A stretch of 64,000 nucleotides of DNA from Gemmatimonadota bacterium (GCA_039587315.1 JBDHIS010000004.1:32144-96143), one strand, 5' to 3'; counted from the first letter of the stretch, positions 20,852 to 24,642 are shown. Made by a program: numbers and translations. The notes: generated by a model from the letters alone, not told the origin.

Positions 20852-21177
20852 GAACCAACTCCTTAATGATGAGAACGCGCGGATTACGCCGGAGAGGGCG
20901 CTCGACCTGAGGGGGTCGGCCCCGGTGCTCGCGCGCTACAGGCCCCATGCTGCGGTGGATCGAGGGGGGGTACTATGACGCAAGTCACAGGGGTTGGTGG
21001 GGTTTACGTATGTGCTTGTCATTCAAGGTGTTATGAGCACTAACAAAGAGGTGCAGCCCGCGGAAATCTGCCGCTCCCAATCAGTTGCGTTCGGGCCCTC
21101 CGATTGGTTCCCGGTCGCCCTGCCGGGGGACACCTGATTAGCTTTGCAGGCTCGTGGACACCAATCGGAGGATGGAA

Positions 21178-21804
21178 ATGCGACGCACGCTATTGAATGC
21201 CGCTACGCTGCTCCTCGTGGCGCTGCCGGCTATGGCACAGGACGCTCCGCCGCCCCCGCCGGAGCATCAGATGCGCATGAAGCAAGAGATGGGGCAGATG
21301 CACCAGATGCAGATGCGGCACATGGACCCGATGGCACAGGTGGCAGTGTACGCGCCGCCGCACTTGCTCGAGCGCAAGGATGCGTTGGAGTTGTCGGATG
21401 AGCAGGTGAGCCGGCTCGAGGCCCTCGCGGCCGAGTTCAAGGAAGGCCACCATCAGGCTGTCGCGGATGCCGAGGCGCACCACAAGCAGGCGATGGAGAT
21501 CTGGATGACCGACTCGCCCGACATCGATCAGCTGCGCGCCCATGCCGAAGCGGCCATGCAGGCACAGCAGACCGCGCACATGGTGCTGCTCGTCGCGGCG
21601 GCGCAGGGCAAGGCGCTGCTCGACGCAGAGCAGCGGGGTCATGTGGCCGGATGGCTGGAGGCCCAGCAGCACATGATGCACCAGCGCATGCAGGGGATGC
21701 AGGGCATGCACCAGGGCATGGGTGAGATGAAGTGTCACATGCCGCACGACATGGAGAAGGAAGAGGGCGAGCACCACGACGACGACGACGACGATCGCCG
21801 GTAA
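21178..21804 (+). CDS. Periplasmic Spy/CpxP-like helical protein, Met/His/Gln-rich
   Basis: GGAGGA RBS, ATG 21178, signal peptide ending AMA-QD, LELSDEQ and LLDAEQR (LTxxQ-like) motifs, Met/His-rich ends, tail HHDDDDDRR. Confidence 0.75.
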   Translation: MRRTLLNAATLLLVALPAMAQDAPPPPPEHQMRMKQEMGQMHQMQMRHMDPMAQVAVYAPPHLLERKDALELSDEQVSRLEALAAEFKEGHHQAVADAEAHHKQAMEIWMTDSPDIDQLRAHAEAAMQAQQTAHMVLLVAAAQGKALLDAEQRGHVAGWLEAQQHMMHQRMQGMQGMHQGMGEMKCHMPHDMEKEEGEHHDDDDDDRR

Positions 21805-21806
21805 TC

Positions 21807-22379
21807 ATGACACTTCTCAGAGCTACGGCGGTCGGGCTGGCGCTGGCGACGCTCGCGGCCGTGCCGGAGCCGCTCGAGGGGCAGCAGCAGGTGCTCCAGG
21901 TCGGGGTGGTAGCGCCCGACTTCGAGCTGCCAGGGGCCACTCGCTACGGCGTGTTGAGCAGTCCGGTCCGGTTGAGCGAGTTCCGCGGCATGACCGTGGT
22001 GCTGTCGTTCTTCTACCGGGCGCGGACGCCTGGCTGAACGGTTCAACTGAATGCGTACCGTGATCAGTACGCAAAGTTGTTCCACGGTGGCCGCAACGTC
22101 GTGCTGATCGCCATCAGCACGGACAGCCCGGAGGAGTTGGCGGCGTGGGCGCGAGACGACGAGTTCCCATTCCTGCTCGCCAGCGACGAGGGCGCCGAGG
22201 TCGGAAAGGCGTACGGCGCGATGGTCGAGGGGGCGAGGGTTCCGACGGACAACCGATCGCTCTTCGTCGTGGGCCCGGATGGCCGCATCGCCTATGTGGA
22301 TGCGCCCTTCGACGAGGACGATCCCGGCGCGTACGAGGAGCTGGGCGAGGCGGTGGATCGCCTGGCGGCTCCGGAGTAG
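21807..22379 (+). CDS. Selenocysteine-containing peroxiredoxin (BCP/PrxQ-like, AhpC/TSA fold) with signal peptide
   Basis: One frame from ATG 21807 to TAG 22379 interrupted only by TGA at 22035-22037, exactly at the peroxidatic Cys position: APDFELP...SFFYRARTPG-U-TVQLNAYRD...VLIAISTD...FPFLLASD...NRSLFVVGPDGRI. Confidence 0.85.
22040..22083 (+). promoter_or_regulatory. Candidate bacterial SECIS hairpin
   Basis: CAACT(22044-48)-GAA-TGCGTAC(22052-58)-loop CGTGATCA-GTACGCA(22067-73)-A-AGTTG(22075-79); the loop starts 22 nt after the TGA and has G at position 2. Confidence 0.65.
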
Positions 22380-22418
22380 CGCAAGAATCTGTGCACTCGA
22401 CGGCTCTCGATGAGCATG

Positions 22419-22444
22419 GAGGGCCCGGCGGTCGCCGGGCCCTC
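22419..22444 (+). terminator. Hairpin terminating the Spy-like/peroxiredoxin unit
   Basis: GAGGGCCCGGCG-gt-CGCCGGGCCCTC perfect inverted repeat followed by GTTCGTCT. Confidence 0.55.
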
Positions 22445-22501
22445 GTTCGTCTCCCTATATTCCCCGGGTCATTGGGCGGACCAACTGGGAAAGGAGTGGG
22501 A

Positions 22502-23155
22502 TTGCGCGGAAGGTCGTGGGTTCGGTTGGTCGCTTGCCTGGGTGCGGCGGGCCTCTTGGTGGCGCACGCCACCCCAGCCCATGCGCAGGAGACCTCGGGC
22601 TCGACCTGGGCTGCTATTGGTGGTGGGGCGTTGGGGCTCTACTCGGGCGCCATGCTTGGATCCATGGGATCCTGGCTGCCTTGCAACCGGACGTACCAGA
22701 GCATGACCTGCGTGCGCGTGTCCACGGTGGCCGCTGGCGTGGTGGGGGCGGCGAGCGGGATCGTAATAGGCGCAGTGGATAGCGAAACGTTGGGGGACGC
22801 CGCGGTGGGGTCGGGAGTCGGCTTCGCCATCGGTGCTGTGGCCGGGCTTGCCATGAAGCCGTTTGCGGAGGGGTTCACCTGGCTCGACGTGGCGGCCGTG
22901 GCCGGCATGGGAGGCGCCATAGGTGCCTCGCCGGTGGGAGCGGCGGTCGGGTTCGGGGCCGGCACTCTCGTCGGCGTCGTGCTGTGGCAGGTGATTCCGT
23001 CCATAGAGCTGTCTGACGCGCTGGCCTTCAGCGTCGGCGGCATGGCGCTCGGCGGCCTCACCGGCTGGGTCTACCGGGCGTTGGACGTCGAGAGCAATCA
23101 GCCTTCGGGGATGGCACGTGCCGCCATCCCGATCGGTTTCACGCTTACGTTTTGA
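22502..23155 (+). CDS. Glycine-zipper-rich membrane or secreted protein
   Basis: AAGGAG RBS then TTG 22502; signal peptide ending AHA-QE; repeated GxxxG helices; Cys pair; terminal GFTLTF. Confidence 0.65.
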   Translation: MRGRSWVRLVACLGAAGLLVAHATPAHAQETSGSTWAAIGGGALGLYSGAMLGSMGSWLPCNRTYQSMTCVRVSTVAAGVVGAASGIVIGAVDSETLGDAAVGSGVGFAIGAVAGLAMKPFAEGFTWLDVAAVAGMGGAIGASPVGAAVGFGAGTLVGVVLWQVIPSIELSDALAFSVGGMALGGLTGWVYRALDVESNQPSGMARAAIPIGFTLTF

Positions 23156-23250
23156 CCGGTGGGCGCCGAGCGCTTGCCTGACCTCGCACACGAGTGGCAC
23201 AATTGGAGCCACCGTCCCATTGTCCCGGTTGTGACCGAGGGTATCCCCAG

Positions 23251-24642
23251 ATGATGCAAATCAGACGCATATCGCGGTACGCAGTCCCGCTGGCCTTGGC
23301 GCTCTCGGCCGGCGTACCCGACGCAGCCGCCCAGGACGCCCAGTACTGGACGAACCAGTACGGCACCACCGGGAACCTGATTGGAGGGGCGGTGGTCGGG
23401 TCGGTAGCGGACTTGAGCGCCGTCTTCTACAACCCCGGGGCCGTGAGTCTCATAACGGATCCCGAGCTGATCGCGACCTCGCACGTGTTCGAGGCGGTGG
23501 ATGTGAGCATCGATGGCAGAGGGGAGCTGAACATTGACCTCAACGACTTGTCCATCGGCAACGCTCCCGGGTTCTTTGCAGGTTTGATCCCCCTCAATGC
23601 GTTGGGCAAGCACACGATTGGCTATTCGTTCCTCACGCGGTACAAGTTCGACGCCGAGCTCCGGGCGGCTGGTAGCGGCACCGCGGACCTGTTGGGCGAC
23701 GGAACGGATGAGGACTATTACGTGGAGCTGGGATTCACCTCGAGGCTGAACGAGAGCTGGGCCGGGCTCACCTGGTCATACCCGCTCGGCCGGAGGTTCG
23801 GGATCGGTGTATCCACGTTCGTCACCATCCGCAGCCAACGCGCGCGCTCGGCGATCACCGGGCAGGCGTTCCAATCGCCAGGAACCACTGGTGGGGTGAC
23901 GCAGTCGGACCTCGGCTACAAGTACAATCACTACGGGATCCTTTGGAAGGCCGGCTTGACGTACGACTGGTTGGGGTTCAGCCTCGGGGCGACCGTGACC
24001 ACGCCGAGGATCAAGGTCTTTGGATCAGGGGAGACACTGGTCAACAGGCTCGTGGTGGGTCAGGACGCTGACGGCGACGGGACTCCGGATCCTCTCTTCA
24101 TAGCGGATGTGCAGTCTGATCTGCCCGCGATCTACAAGTCCCCCTTTTCCCTTGCGGGTGGTGCGTCCAAGATGGTCGGGCGCAACACGACGCTGCACGC
24201 GACTGTCGAGTGGTTCAACGACGTGCCGCTCTATGACGTGATGCTAACCGAGCCGTTCGTGGGGCAGAGCACCGGCGACACGCTGCAAGCCGATGTCACG
24301 CAGGAGCTCGAAGACGTGATCAACTTCGGCATCGGCGTGGAGGAGCGCTTCACTCCCGGATTCTCGTTGATGGCCAGTTTCCGCACCGACAACTCGGCGC
24401 TTACAACCGGCGAGATCACTGACGTATCGGTCGCGTCCTGGAACATCTACTTCGTGACTGTGGGCTCCACGTTCAGGCTGGGGGGCGGGGAGTTCACGCT
24501 GGGGTTGGCCTACGGGTTCGGCGGCGAGGACCCGACCAAGTTCATGGAGAATCCTCCGGACGATGAGATCATAGAGCCGCTGCCCGACGATGCGCGGATC
24601 AGGTACAGCAGCTTGCGGTTCATCATCGCGTTCTCGTTCTAG
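23251..24642 (+). CDS. FadL/OmpP1-like outer-membrane beta-barrel
   Basis: Signal peptide ending AAA-QD, GGAVVGSVADLSAVFYNPGA (hatch motif like FadL NPA), many amphipathic strands, terminal IIAFSF; ATG 23251. Confidence 0.75.
   Translation: MMQIRRISRYAVPLALALSAGVPDAAAQDAQYWTNQYGTTGNLIGGAVVGSVADLSAVFYNPGAVSLITDPELIATSHVFEAVDVSIDGRGELNIDLNDLSIGNAPGFFAGLIPLNALGKHTIGYSFLTRYKFDAELRAAGSGTADLLGDGTDEDYYVELGFTSRLNESWAGLTWSYPLGRRFGIGVSTFVTIRSQRARSAITGQAFQSPGTTGGVTQSDLGYKYNHYGILWKAGLTYDWLGFSLGATVTTPRIKVFGSGETLVNRLVVGQDADGDGTPDPLFIADVQSDLPAIYKSPFSLAGGASKMVGRNTTLHATVEWFNDVPLYDVMLTEPFVGQSTGDTLQADVTQELEDVINFGIGVEERFTPGFSLMASFRTDNSALTTGEITDVSVASWNIYFVTVGSTFRLGGGEFTLGLAYGFGGEDPTKFMENPPDDEIIEPLPDDARIRYSSLRFIIAFSF

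What the first reader, a model, noticed from the sequence alone, without database searches (positions are those of the whole stretch)
21807..22379. Hidden selenoprotein: exported BCP/PrxQ-like peroxiredoxin with UGA at the peroxidatic site and a SECIS-like hairpin
Seen: the ORF track splits this gene, but one frame continues through TGA 22035-22037 (codon 77 of 190): FFYRARTPG-U-TVQ, matching the Prx motif FYP...TPGCT.Q. Downstream is a 7-bp plus 5-bp stem with an 8-nt loop CGUGAUCA starting 22 nt after the UGA, consistent with the general bacterial SECIS model. The protein has no Cys residue at all and has an N-terminal signal-like segment, implying an extracytoplasmic 1-Sec peroxidase. Established: Sec/Cys swaps occur in Prx families.
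Basis: partly seen in the sequence, partly recalled or inferred. Interest (0 to 1): 0.7.

Follow-up and report, generated by a model that had tools for sequence, protein, structure and literature searches.

The report
Exported selenocysteine peroxiredoxin of Gemmatimonadota
This is a real gene for a probably exported peroxide-detoxifying enzyme whose catalytic residue is selenocysteine, encoded by a UGA "stop" codon and a nearly invariant RNA hairpin; it occurs throughout the phylum Gemmatimonadota, gene callers routinely split it in two, and it is a new member of an already known class of selenoproteins.

Summary
Window 21807-22379 (+) is one 190-codon AhpC/TSA (BCP/PrxQ-like) gene with an in-frame TGA at 22035-22037, at the peroxidatic position (T74-P-G-U77). 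The protein has no Cys and a signal-peptide-like N-terminus.

The genome encodes tRNA-Sec, SelA, SelB and SelD. In 47 orthologues from three families the TGA sits in the same column. It is followed, after 14 nt, by the hairpin GCGUAC-CGUGAUCA-GUACGC. Six pairs are invariant, and the outer seventh pair covaries through all four Watson-Crick types. Synonymous sites there are frozen (CGT/GAT).

Cys-form orthologues have TGC at that column and lack the hairpin, even when they encode the same residues AYRDQY. The exact TGA+hairpin pattern occurs in at least 120 species genomes, almost all Gemmatimonadota. Gene callers split the gene into pieces of about 80 and 113 aa.

In about 60% of orthologous loci a CcdA plus TlpA-like thioredoxin pair lies next to it, which suggests a PprX-like periplasmic reducing pathway. 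The window's genome has lost that pair.

Most Sec forms replace the canonical Pro of PxxxTxxC with Phe or Tyr (Y70 here).

Sec-peroxiredoxins are already known, so this is a new member with variant features. Interest is moderate.

The parts
21807..22379 (+). Complete coding sequence of the Sec-containing BCP/PrxQ-like peroxiredoxin (190 codons including U77; stop TAG 22377-22379)
   Evidence: Pfam AhpC-TSA 1.4e-27 at 96.5 bits (cut-off 26) and Redoxin 2.2e-19. AF2 model pLDDT 90, pTM 0.83, continuous across the UGA. Foldseek top hits are BCP/PrxQ and AhpE.
21807..21887 (+). Signal-peptide-like N-terminus and low-complexity linker (residues 1-27); the cleavage site is not determined
   Evidence: A basic residue followed by an Ala/Leu-rich hydrophobic run. 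Orthologues have canonical ...A-x-A|Q ends. pLDDT is 54-71 for residues 1-30 against above 95 for the domain. No SignalP was available.
22014..22016 (+). Tyr70 codon (TAC) at the position of the canonical Pro of PxxxTxxC/U
   Evidence: HMMER alignment to PDB 2ywn and 2cx3 puts Y70 opposite Pro. At -7, the 47 Sec relatives have F 25, Y 17, P 3, S 1, I 1 and the 118 pattern loci have F 63, Y 38, P 11, I 4, V 1, S 1. Cys forms have Pro in 16/16 and 83/87.
22026..22028 (+). Thr74 codon (catalytic Thr of TxxU)
   Evidence: T or S in all 47 orthologues and in 89/89 database homologues.
22035..22037 (+). UGA codon 77, read as selenocysteine (the peroxidatic residue)
   Evidence: Same column in 47/47 TGA orthologues and TGC in 6/6 TGA-free orthologues. 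It lies at the N-terminus of helix 75-86 in the model. The full Sec machinery is in the genome.
22052..22073 (+). SECIS hairpin: 5' arm 22052-22058 (U-GCGUAC), loop 22059-22066 (CGUGAUCA), 3' arm 22067-22073 (GUACGC-A)
   Evidence: Six pairs are invariant. The outer pair is CG 30, GC 10, UA 5, AU 1, with 1 mismatch (0/500 shuffles reach the covariation score). The loop is identical in 46/47. Codons +6..+11 are frozen as GCG TAC CGT GAT CAG TAC. Cys forms encoding the same AYRDQY use CGG/CGC and GAC and lose the outer part of the 3' arm.
22044..22079 (+). Window-specific lower stem (22044-22048 with 22075-22079) that encloses the SECIS hairpin
   Evidence: It is in the MFE fold of the window sequence. 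The RNAalifold consensus of 47 orthologues does not retain it, and symmetric positions mostly mismatch.
22254..22256 (+). Arg150 codon (conserved catalytic Arg of peroxiredoxins)
   Evidence: Invariant in 89/89 database homologues.
22421..22442 (+). GC-rich 9-bp hairpin (GGGCCCGGC-GGUC-GCCGGGCCC) followed by a U-containing tail; probable terminator of the gene
   Evidence: Read from the sequence. The consensus GGGCCCGG...CCGGGCCC is present downstream of many orthologues. The simple terminator scan did not call it because the T run is interrupted.
21154..21804 (+). Upstream co-oriented gene: exported Met/His-rich protein with LTXXQ-like repeats; its stop is 2 nt before the Prx ATG, so it is probably co-transcribed and translationally coupled
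   Evidence: Translation. PF07813 LTXXQ E 0.0023 at 19.1 bits, below the 24.3 cut-off. An orthologue sits upstream of the Sec-Prx in same-genus locus L026 (62% identity by tblastn).

Best explanation
The locus encodes one protein, a BCP/PrxQ-type peroxiredoxin whose peroxidatic residue is selenocysteine. SelB with Sec-tRNA(Sec) recodes UGA 22035-22037, directed by the hairpin at 22052-22073, which starts 14 nt after the UGA. The hairpin sequence is held nearly invariant across Gemmatimonadota because it must both bind SelB and encode A-Y-R-D-Q-Y. An N-terminal Sec-type signal peptide exports the product to the cell envelope (inferred). There the selenolate U77, activated by T74 and R150, reduces a peroxide to give a selenenic acid (inferred). 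No resolving Cys exists, so an external thiol must regenerate the enzyme. In most relatives the likely donor is the neighbouring TlpA-like WCxxC thioredoxin, fed by CcdA from cytoplasmic thioredoxin. This is the same logic as Caulobacter ScsB-TlpA-PprX. The window's genome has lost that pair and must use another envelope reductant. Shown: gene continuity, Prx fold and motifs, Sec machinery, TGA/Cys column, SECIS conservation specific to TGA forms, and synteny. Inferred: Se incorporation, export, peroxidase activity and the reductant.
For: Single frame with TGA at codon 77. AhpC-TSA 96.5 bits. Confident Prx model with U77 at the helix N-terminus and BCP/PrxQ/AhpE as structural neighbours. tRNA-Sec, SelB, SelA and SelD, the last itself with a TGA. 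47 orthologues with exactly one TGA and 6 with none; same column, TGC in the TGA-free ones. Hairpin invariant, with a covarying outer pair. Synonymous sites frozen only in TGA forms. At least 120 species genomes carry the exact element. Relatives end the same gene with a TGA stop, so the recoding is position-specific. Signal-peptide-like N-termini in all orthologues and no other Cys. CcdA and a TlpA-like gene adjacent in 28/47 relatives and 49/85 loci. A Cys-form orthologue is followed on the same strand by ccdA (G059). PprX precedent in PMC3322552.
Against: There is no direct evidence of selenium incorporation, export or peroxidase activity. The single-sequence fold is not significant. No Rfam SECIS family matches. 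Six of the seven stem pairs never vary, so structural covariation rests on one pair, and that pair is A.A in 29 of 118 loci of a wider set. The canonical active-site Pro is missing (Y70). The proposed CcdA/TlpA reductant is absent from this genome, and where present it is convergent rather than operonic. The window's copy is the most divergent in its genus.
Confidence: 0.88

Rival explanations
1. The protein is a genuine exported selenoprotein with a Prx fold, but its physiological role is not bulk peroxide removal. It could be a redox relay or sensor, a reductase for another envelope oxidant (peroxynitrite, HOCl-derived species, lipid hydroperoxides), or part of a copper/oxidative-stress module with the Met/His-rich neighbour. 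Replacement of the active-site Pro by Phe/Tyr would reflect a changed substrate pocket.
For: Pro at -7 is replaced in about 90% of Sec forms, whereas it is described as absolutely conserved in Prxs (PMC3322552; PMC13188914). The gene scores below the cut-offs of the BCP and PrxU equivalog models. The upstream exported Met/His-rich LTXXQ-like gene is conserved in the genus.
Against: Thr, Sec/Cys and Arg of the peroxidatic site are all conserved. The closest structures are bona fide peroxidases, including the 1-Cys AhpE. The Cys forms of the same orthologous group have the full canonical motif.
Confidence: 0.1
2. The N-terminal hydrophobic segment is an uncleaved signal anchor or is not used at all. 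The enzyme would then be membrane-tethered or cytoplasmic rather than soluble in the periplasm.
For: The window's own N-terminus lacks a clean A-x-A site. No signal-peptide predictor was available. The adjacent Thioredoxin_9 gene in sister family f3 is cytoplasmic.
Against: Orthologues have typical n-h-c regions ending A-x-A|Q. Synteny is with the envelope reducing pair CcdA/TlpA. Exported BCP-type Prx exist.
Confidence: 0.08
3. The TGA is a true stop: a pseudogene, a sequencing error, or two separate small genes as automated pipelines annotate (about 76-81 aa plus 100-113 aa).
For: Table-11 ORF calling splits the gene. Public gene calls list an N-part and a 113-aa C-part.
Against: The TGA is conserved in the same column in 47 relatives and in at least 120 species genomes, with purifying selection on both sides. 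The Prx fold needs both halves. Cys stands at this column in homologues. The Sec machinery and a TGA-specific hairpin are present.
Confidence: 0.01
4. The conserved 20-nt hairpin is maintained for a reason other than Sec insertion, such as amino-acid constraint on AYRDQY or an mRNA stability or attenuation element. UGA would then be read by another mechanism such as near-cognate read-through.
For: The Y-R-D-x-Y residues are conserved in Cys forms too. Six of seven pairs are invariant and so uninformative.
Against: Cys forms that encode the same AYRDQY use different synonymous codons and lose the stem ends. Other invariant residues in the Sec forms use 3-4 codons. CGT and GAT are otherwise minority codons in these genes. 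The outer pair covaries. This genome's selD also has a hairpin after its UGA, with a G-U-starting loop at a similar distance.
Confidence: 0.02

Closest known systems
Sec-containing peroxiredoxins (Prx selenoprotein family, PF00578/COG1225, TxxU motif; e.g. PrxU of Eubacterium acidaminophilum, Sohling et al. 2001; 43 genes in the Sargasso Sea selenoproteome)
   Same: AhpC/TSA fold, Sec at the peroxidatic position in T-x-x-U, Cys homologues widespread, bacterial SECIS directly downstream (PMC1088965 and PMC13188914).
   Different: It is not an equivalog of PrxU (NF040737: 56 bits against a cut-off of 270). It has a signal peptide and no second redox Cys. The motif is [F/Y]xxxTxxU instead of the 'highly conserved PxxxTxxU'. 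It is a near phylum-wide marker of Gemmatimonadota with a nearly invariant SECIS. No paper in the searched library links Gemmatimonadetes to a Sec-Prx.
PprX, the periplasmic BCP/PrxQ peroxiredoxin of Caulobacter crescentus, reduced by TlpA, which is reduced by ScsB/DsbD (Cho et al. 2012, PMC3322552)
   Same: Exported BCP/PrxQ-type enzyme. A TlpA-like thioredoxin and a DsbD-superfamily membrane electron transporter are the inferred electron supply.
   Different: PprX uses Cys with a resolving Cys and the canonical Pro. Here the enzyme is a 1-Sec form. The transporter is the minimal CcdA type rather than ScsB. The pair is a convergent neighbour and is missing from the window's genome.
Mycobacterium tuberculosis AhpE (1-Cys peroxiredoxin; PDB 1xxu, 1xvw, 4x0x)
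   Same: One-redox-residue Prx with no resolving Cys. It is among the best structural matches (target-normalised TM-score 0.86-0.88, about 30% identity).
   Different: AhpE is cytoplasmic, uses Cys, retains the Pro, and belongs to a different Prx subfamily.
Archaeal and bacterial BCP/PrxQ structures (S. tokodaii 2ywn/4g2e, A. pernix 2cx3/4gqf, S. solfataricus Bcp4 3hjp, X. campestris PrxQ 5iiz)
   Same: Best sequence and fold matches (E 1e-15; Foldseek E 1e-14 to 1e-12).
   Different: They are cytoplasmic Cys enzymes, mostly with a resolving Cys. The E. coli BCP equivalog model NF006960 scores 64.6 bits against a cut-off of 140.
General bacterial SECIS (E. coli fdhF type; the bSECISearch model, recalled from memory)
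   Same: A hairpin shortly downstream of UGA within the coding region, with G (here G-U) near the start of the apical loop about 20 nt from the UGA. This genome's selD has a comparable hairpin with loop GUCU.
   Different: No curated Rfam SECIS family matches. The spacer is 14 nt and the loop 8 nt. The degree of sequence invariance across a phylum is unusual for bacterial SECIS elements.

Membership tests
Peroxiredoxin (AhpC/TSA, PF00578), BCP/PrxQ-like | Sequence matches the family HMM above the curated threshold | tested here: met
   PF00578 at 96.5 bits against a cut-off of 26, covering 123 of 124 profile positions.
Peroxiredoxin (AhpC/TSA, PF00578), BCP/PrxQ-like | Thioredoxin-type Prx fold with the peroxidatic residue in the first turn of helix alpha2 | tested here: met
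   AF2 pLDDT 90, with U77 at the start of helix 75-86. Foldseek top hits are BCP/PrxQ/AhpE at target-normalised TM-score 0.85-0.88.
Peroxiredoxin (AhpC/TSA, PF00578), BCP/PrxQ-like | Catalytic Thr (TxxC/U) and conserved Arg | tested here: met
   T74 and R150. T/S in all orthologues and R in 89/89 homologues.
Peroxiredoxin (AhpC/TSA, PF00578), BCP/PrxQ-like | Conserved Pro of the PxxxTxxC motif | tested here: not met
   Y70 aligns with the Pro. About 90% of Sec forms have F or Y here; Cys forms keep P.
Peroxiredoxin (AhpC/TSA, PF00578), BCP/PrxQ-like | Thiol-dependent peroxidase activity | not testable with these tools
   Needs purified protein and an assay.
NCBIfam equivalogs BCP (NF006960) and selenoprotein PrxU (NF040737) | Score above the equivalog cut-off | tested here: not met
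   64.6 against 140 bits, and 56.3 against 270 bits. It is a distinct subfamily.
Bacterial selenoprotein (SelB/SECIS-dependent UGA recoding) | In-frame UGA aligned with Cys in homologues and conserved among orthologues | tested here: met
   47/47 TGA in one column, 6/6 TGC in TGA-free orthologues, and Cys in 87/89 database homologues.
Bacterial selenoprotein (SelB/SECIS-dependent UGA recoding) | Stem-loop immediately downstream of the UGA, under selection at the RNA level | tested here: met
   Invariant hairpin, covarying outer pair, frozen synonymous sites, absent from Cys forms. Caveat: the outer pair is A.A in 29/118 of the wider set.
Bacterial selenoprotein (SelB/SECIS-dependent UGA recoding) | Genome encodes selA, selB, selC (tRNA-Sec) and selD | tested here: met
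   selA 516.8 bits, selB 307+39 bits, tRNA-Sec 75.6 bits with anticodon TCA, selD 362 bits; all above cut-off.
Bacterial selenoprotein (SelB/SECIS-dependent UGA recoding) | Selenium actually incorporated | not testable with these tools
   Needs 75Se labelling or mass spectrometry.
Rfam curated SECIS families | Match to a covariance model | tested here: not met
   No SECIS family among hits up to E=10 on 21700-22500.
PprX-type envelope peroxiredoxin system | N-terminal signal sequence (export) | tested here: inconclusive
   Signal-like n-h-c regions in all orthologues, many with A-x-A|Q. No predictor or experiment.
PprX-type envelope peroxiredoxin system | Dedicated TlpA-like thioredoxin and DsbD-family transporter as electron donors | tested here: inconclusive
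   Adjacent in 28/47 relatives and 49/85 loci, but absent from the window's genome. Electron transfer was not tested.

The most novel reading that the evidence does not exclude
Having selenium instead of sulfur at the peroxidatic position makes the otherwise 'absolutely conserved' active-site Pro of peroxiredoxins dispensable or disfavoured. In this family Sec goes with Phe/Tyr at -7 and Cys goes with Pro. The two characters appear to have switched together more than once, including reversions that need two nucleotide changes. This would be a natural experiment on what the PxxxTxxC proline does for thiolate but not selenolate chemistry, in the first recognised Sec-pathway-exported 1-Sec peroxidase system (CcdA to TlpA to Sec-Prx) of a whole phylum.
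Probability: 0.3. Interest if true: 0.6.

Novelty: new member of a known kind. Interest (0 to 1): 0.45.

Why it matters
First, annotation. A near phylum-wide Gemmatimonadota gene is systematically split into two meaningless ORFs in public collections. A 38-nt pattern (TGAAC-N4-CA-N2-TG-N3-GCGTACCGTGAYCAGTACGC) recovers it with very few hits outside the phylum, and could serve as a selenoprotein and SECIS marker for the phylum.

Second, biology. It extends Sec-peroxiredoxins to the cell envelope and links them to a CcdA/TlpA reducing module. This suggests that these soil and sediment bacteria invest selenium in extracytoplasmic peroxide defence.

Third, enzymology. The association of Sec with loss of the canonical Pro, with interleaved Cys+Pro relatives, offers matched natural variants to test why Prxs need that Pro and what Sec buys.

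Fourth, RNA. An almost invariant SECIS across hundreds of species is a good substrate for defining SelB recognition rules outside Proteobacteria and Firmicutes.

Tried and rejected
1. Single-sequence folding as evidence for the SECIS. The z-score is -1.47, which is not significant, so I replaced it with comparative analysis.
2. It is not conserved.
3. Rfam SECIS families. No hit.
4. Thioredoxin_9 (PF14595) as the periplasmic reductant. It is adjacent in only 7 of 11 genomes of sister family f3 and not in the window's family. The protein has no signal peptide and a monothiol WC(G/W)D motif. Rejected.
5. My first protein alignment contained minus-strand loci read on the wrong strand. I redid it through oriented DNA alignments.
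6. Pfam on seven neighbouring ORFs gave nothing at E<=0.001. Only a sub-threshold LTXXQ hit appeared for the upstream gene.
7. Phylogenetically independent contrasts for the Sec/non-Pro coupling. There were only 4 supported pairs; about 2.7 went the same way and none the opposite way, p 0.25. The test is underpowered, so the coupling stays a suggestion. The coupling is also not absolute: 4 Cys+F/Y and 3-11 Sec+Pro forms exist.
8. The DNA of Cys form P0003 could not be fetched. P0014, P0017 and P0002 were used instead.
9. I did not lay reads to check the TGA, because conservation in more than 160 independent assemblies answers the sequencing-error question.

Full report
**Observation.** Window 21807-22379 (+) reads as one frame of 190 codons. 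It has a single internal TGA at 22035-22037 (codon 77) in the context FFYRARTPG-U-TVQ, and it ends at TAG 22377-22379. Under table 11 the frame is split into 21732..22037 and 22077..22379. The protein has no Cys and matches AhpC-TSA (E 1.4e-27, 96.5 bits against a cut-off of 26) and Redoxin. There is a 7-bp stem at 22052-22058/22067-22073, an 8-nt loop CGUGAUCA, and a 5-bp lower stem. On this sequence alone the fold is unremarkable (z -1.47).

**Sec machinery.** The genome (G000, 3.2 Mb, 97.7% complete) has a tRNA-Sec at 75.6 bits, which ARAGORN calls as tRNA-SeC with anticodon TCA. It also has SelB (307+39 bits), SelA (516.8 bits) and SelD (362 bits), all above curated cut-offs. SelD itself contains one in-frame TGA, followed by a hairpin whose loop GUCU begins 17 nt after the UGA.

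**Comparative test of the UGA.** I searched 60 related genomes with the protein, reading through stops. In 46 of them (47 with the window) the best orthologue (44-68% identity) has exactly one TGA. Six have none. Oriented DNA alignments show that all 47 TGAs fall in one column, and the six TGA-free orthologues have TGC (Cys) there. Several relatives end the same gene with a TGA stop, so the recoding is position-specific and not a genome-wide reassignment. Record titles place the relatives in Gemmatimonadota: Gemmatimonadales, Longimicrobiales and Gemmatimonas.

**The SECIS.**
- In all 47 TGA forms the UGA is followed by a 14-nt spacer and then N-GCGUAC-CGUGAUCA-GUACGC-N'.
- The six inner pairs never vary.
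- The outer pair is C-G 30, G-C 10, U-A 5, A-U 1, with one mismatch. None of 500 shuffles reaches the observed covariation score, and sliding the 3' partner collapses pairing from 99.7% to 3-54%.
- The loop is identical in 46/47.
- Codons +6 to +11 are GCG-TAC-CGT-GAT-CAG-TAC in 47/47 (GAT in 46/47). Other invariant residues (Arg-4, Thr-14, Gly-1, Ala+12) use three or four synonymous codons. Elsewhere in these genes CGT and GAT are mostly minority codons; CGT at Arg −2 is an exception (see Noticed in passing).
- The sharpest control is the set of close Cys forms (about 65% identity) that encode the same residues AYRDQY. They use CGG/CGC for Arg and GAC for Asp, and they lose the outer GC of the 3' arm. 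The more distant Cys forms differ even more. The RNA-level constraint is therefore specific to UGA-bearing genes, which is what a SECIS predicts.
- Caveat 1: six of the seven pairs are invariant and so uninformative about pairing.
- Caveat 2: in a wider set of 118 loci the outer pair is Watson-Crick in 81 but A.A in 29, all from one lower-GC subclade. The universal core is therefore 6 bp plus the loop.
- Caveat 4: no Rfam SECIS family matches.

**Distribution and annotation state.** Nearly all are Gemmatimonadota. A few short contigs are labelled Phycisphaerae or Acidobacteria; these may be mis-binned, which I did not check. In public protein collections the Sec forms appear only as 113-116-aa fragments starting at the Met four codons after the UGA, plus an unannotated N-terminal ORF of about 80 aa. 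One record reads the codon as W.

**The protein.** AlphaFold2 with 90 sequences gives pLDDT 90 and pTM 0.83. Residues 30-190 score above 95 in almost every block, and U77 lies at the N-terminus of helix 75-86. Foldseek and HMMER place it nearest to archaeal and bacterial BCP/PrxQ enzymes and to the 1-Cys Prx AhpE, with target-normalised TM-scores of 0.85-0.88. Thr74 and Arg150 are conserved. It is not an equivalog of E. coli BCP or of the selenoprotein PrxU. Neither Sec forms (117/118) nor Cys forms (87/89) have a second Cys in the mature part, so the whole orthologous group is of the 1-Cys/1-Sec type. All orthologues start with a basic residue, an Ala/Leu-rich hydrophobic run and often A-x-A|Q. 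The first roughly 30 residues are low-confidence in the model. Export is therefore likely but inferred.

**An unexpected feature: the active-site Pro.**
- The Pro of PxxxTxxC is called absolutely or highly conserved in the literature (PMC3322552; PMC13188914). In the window it is Tyr70.
- Among Sec forms, position -7 is F 25, Y 17, P 3, S 1, I 1 in the relatives, and F 63, Y 38, P 11, I 4, V 1, S 1 in the wider set.
- Among Cys forms it is Pro in 16/16 and 83/87.
- On a maximum-likelihood tree Sec and Cys forms interleave. Well-supported branches force at least 3 switches, and parsimony needs 7-12.
- Because all Sec forms share one SECIS, nested Cys+Pro forms look like reversions.
- With the two trait columns masked, independent contrasts give only four supported pairs. 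About 2.7 go the same way and none the opposite way, p 0.25. The coupling is suggestive, not established.

**Context and likely electron supply.** In same-genus locus L026 the order is: exported Met/His-rich protein, then Sec-Prx, then (convergent) a TlpA-like thioredoxin with WCTVC and a signal anchor, then a 239-aa CcdA. I compared coordinates. The high-scoring CcdA (145-177 bits) lies 0.6-2.3 kb from the Sec-Prx in 28 of 47 TGA-bearing genomes across three families. In the pattern-derived set, 49 of 85 loci with enough downstream sequence carry both CcdA and the TlpA-like gene. In 47 of those 49 the pair is convergent, at a median of 596 nt. A Cys-form orthologue (G059) is followed on the same strand by ccdA. 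This matches the experimentally shown pathway from ScsB or DsbD through TlpA to the exported BCP-type PprX in Caulobacter (PMC3322552).

**The window's genome is an exception.** It has no close homologue of either partner; the best matches are 27% identity, elsewhere in the genome. Its best DsbD_TM hits are two lower-scoring matches on other contigs, at about 60 bits. It keeps the upstream Met/His-rich gene (21154-21804), which gives only a sub-threshold LTXXQ hit, and whose stop lies 2 nt before the Prx ATG. The window's Sec-Prx is also the outlier of its genus: 67-72% identity to orthologues that are 79-93% identical to each other. The UGA, the SECIS, Thr and Arg are all intact. A GC-rich hairpin at 22421-22442, conserved in many orthologues, probably terminates transcription.

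**Comparison with what is known.** Sec-containing peroxiredoxins with a TxxU motif are an established bacterial selenoprotein family: PrxU of E. acidaminophilum, 43 genes in the Sargasso Sea survey, and the 2026 review. An exported BCP-type Prx fed by TlpA and a DsbD-family protein is also known. I found no paper in the searched library that links Gemmatimonadetes to a Sec-Prx, or that describes an exported Sec-Prx linked to CcdA. The finding is therefore a new, phylum-wide member of a known kind. Its variant features are export, 1-Sec chemistry, loss of the canonical Pro, a nearly invariant SECIS and CcdA/TlpA synteny.

**Verdict.** Confidence that this is a genuine SECIS-decoded selenoprotein peroxiredoxin is about 0.9. 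Export, peroxidase activity and the reductant are inferred. Interest is moderate at 0.45: the kind is known, but the annotation gap, the Sec/Pro relationship and the envelope context are worth a specialist's attention.

Noticed in passing
G000 contig C66:105564-106493 (-), locus L020: SelD of this genome is itself a selenoprotein. It has one in-frame TGA (…LSHGAG-U-ACKLSS…) followed directly by a hairpin with loop GUCU.
   Followed up: partly
window 22380-24642, compared with L026 2100-3400: Same-genus relatives carry a convergent TlpA-like thioredoxin and CcdA right after the Sec-Prx. In the window these are replaced by a Gly-rich membrane protein (about 22500-23155) and an outer-membrane-barrel-like ORF ending ...IIAFSF (23194-24642). 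No close homologue of the lost pair exists elsewhere in the 97.7%-complete genome.
   Followed up: partly
window 21154-21804 (+); paralogue at G000 C55:37972-38406: Exported Met/His-rich protein with LTXXQ-like repeats and a C-terminal HHDDDDDD tail. It resembles Spy/CpxP/ZraP-type or Cu-binding periplasmic stress proteins. It is conserved upstream of the Sec-Prx within the genus and has a 39%-identical paralogue elsewhere.
   Followed up: partly
window 22044-22049 (codons +3/+4 after the UGA): Gln+3 is CAA in 40 of 47 Sec forms and CAG in all 3 Cys forms that keep Gln, in very GC-rich genes. The stretch CAAAUG between the UGA and the hairpin may be under extra RNA-level or decoding-context constraint.
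   Followed up: no
window 22026-22034 and orthologues (codons -3 to -1): Where residue -2 is Arg it is CGT in 17 of 23 Sec forms, often giving ACGCGU just upstream of the UGA. This is identical and self-complementary to the ACGCGU at the 5' arm of the SECIS, so an alternative pairing is possible. Its significance is unknown.
   Followed up: no
L260 5105-5653, L262 5076-5612 and 7 of 11 genomes of sister family f3: A cytoplasmic monothiol Thioredoxin_9 protein (WCGD motif, no signal peptide) sits immediately upstream of the Sec-Prx in one family only. It may be a co-regulated oxidative-stress gene rather than the reductant.
   Followed up: partly
G022:C35:15046-15384; G025:C4:61242-61673; G056:C61:4733-5116; G041:C2:315950-316351; G035:C21:6598-6981; G016:C251:1597-1977: Other thioredoxin-fold or AhpC/TSA-like hits in relatives also contain a single in-frame TGA. 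This suggests further Prx-like or Trx-like selenoproteins in Gemmatimonadota.
   Followed up: no
protein P0008 (database homologue): One full-length database homologue has Leu at the Sec/Cys column (…ARTSG-L-TVQMNAYRDQY…), with Phe at -7 and otherwise the same sequence as the W-translated record P0011 over the stretch shown. This is either a translation artefact of a Sec form or an inactivated copy.
   Followed up: no
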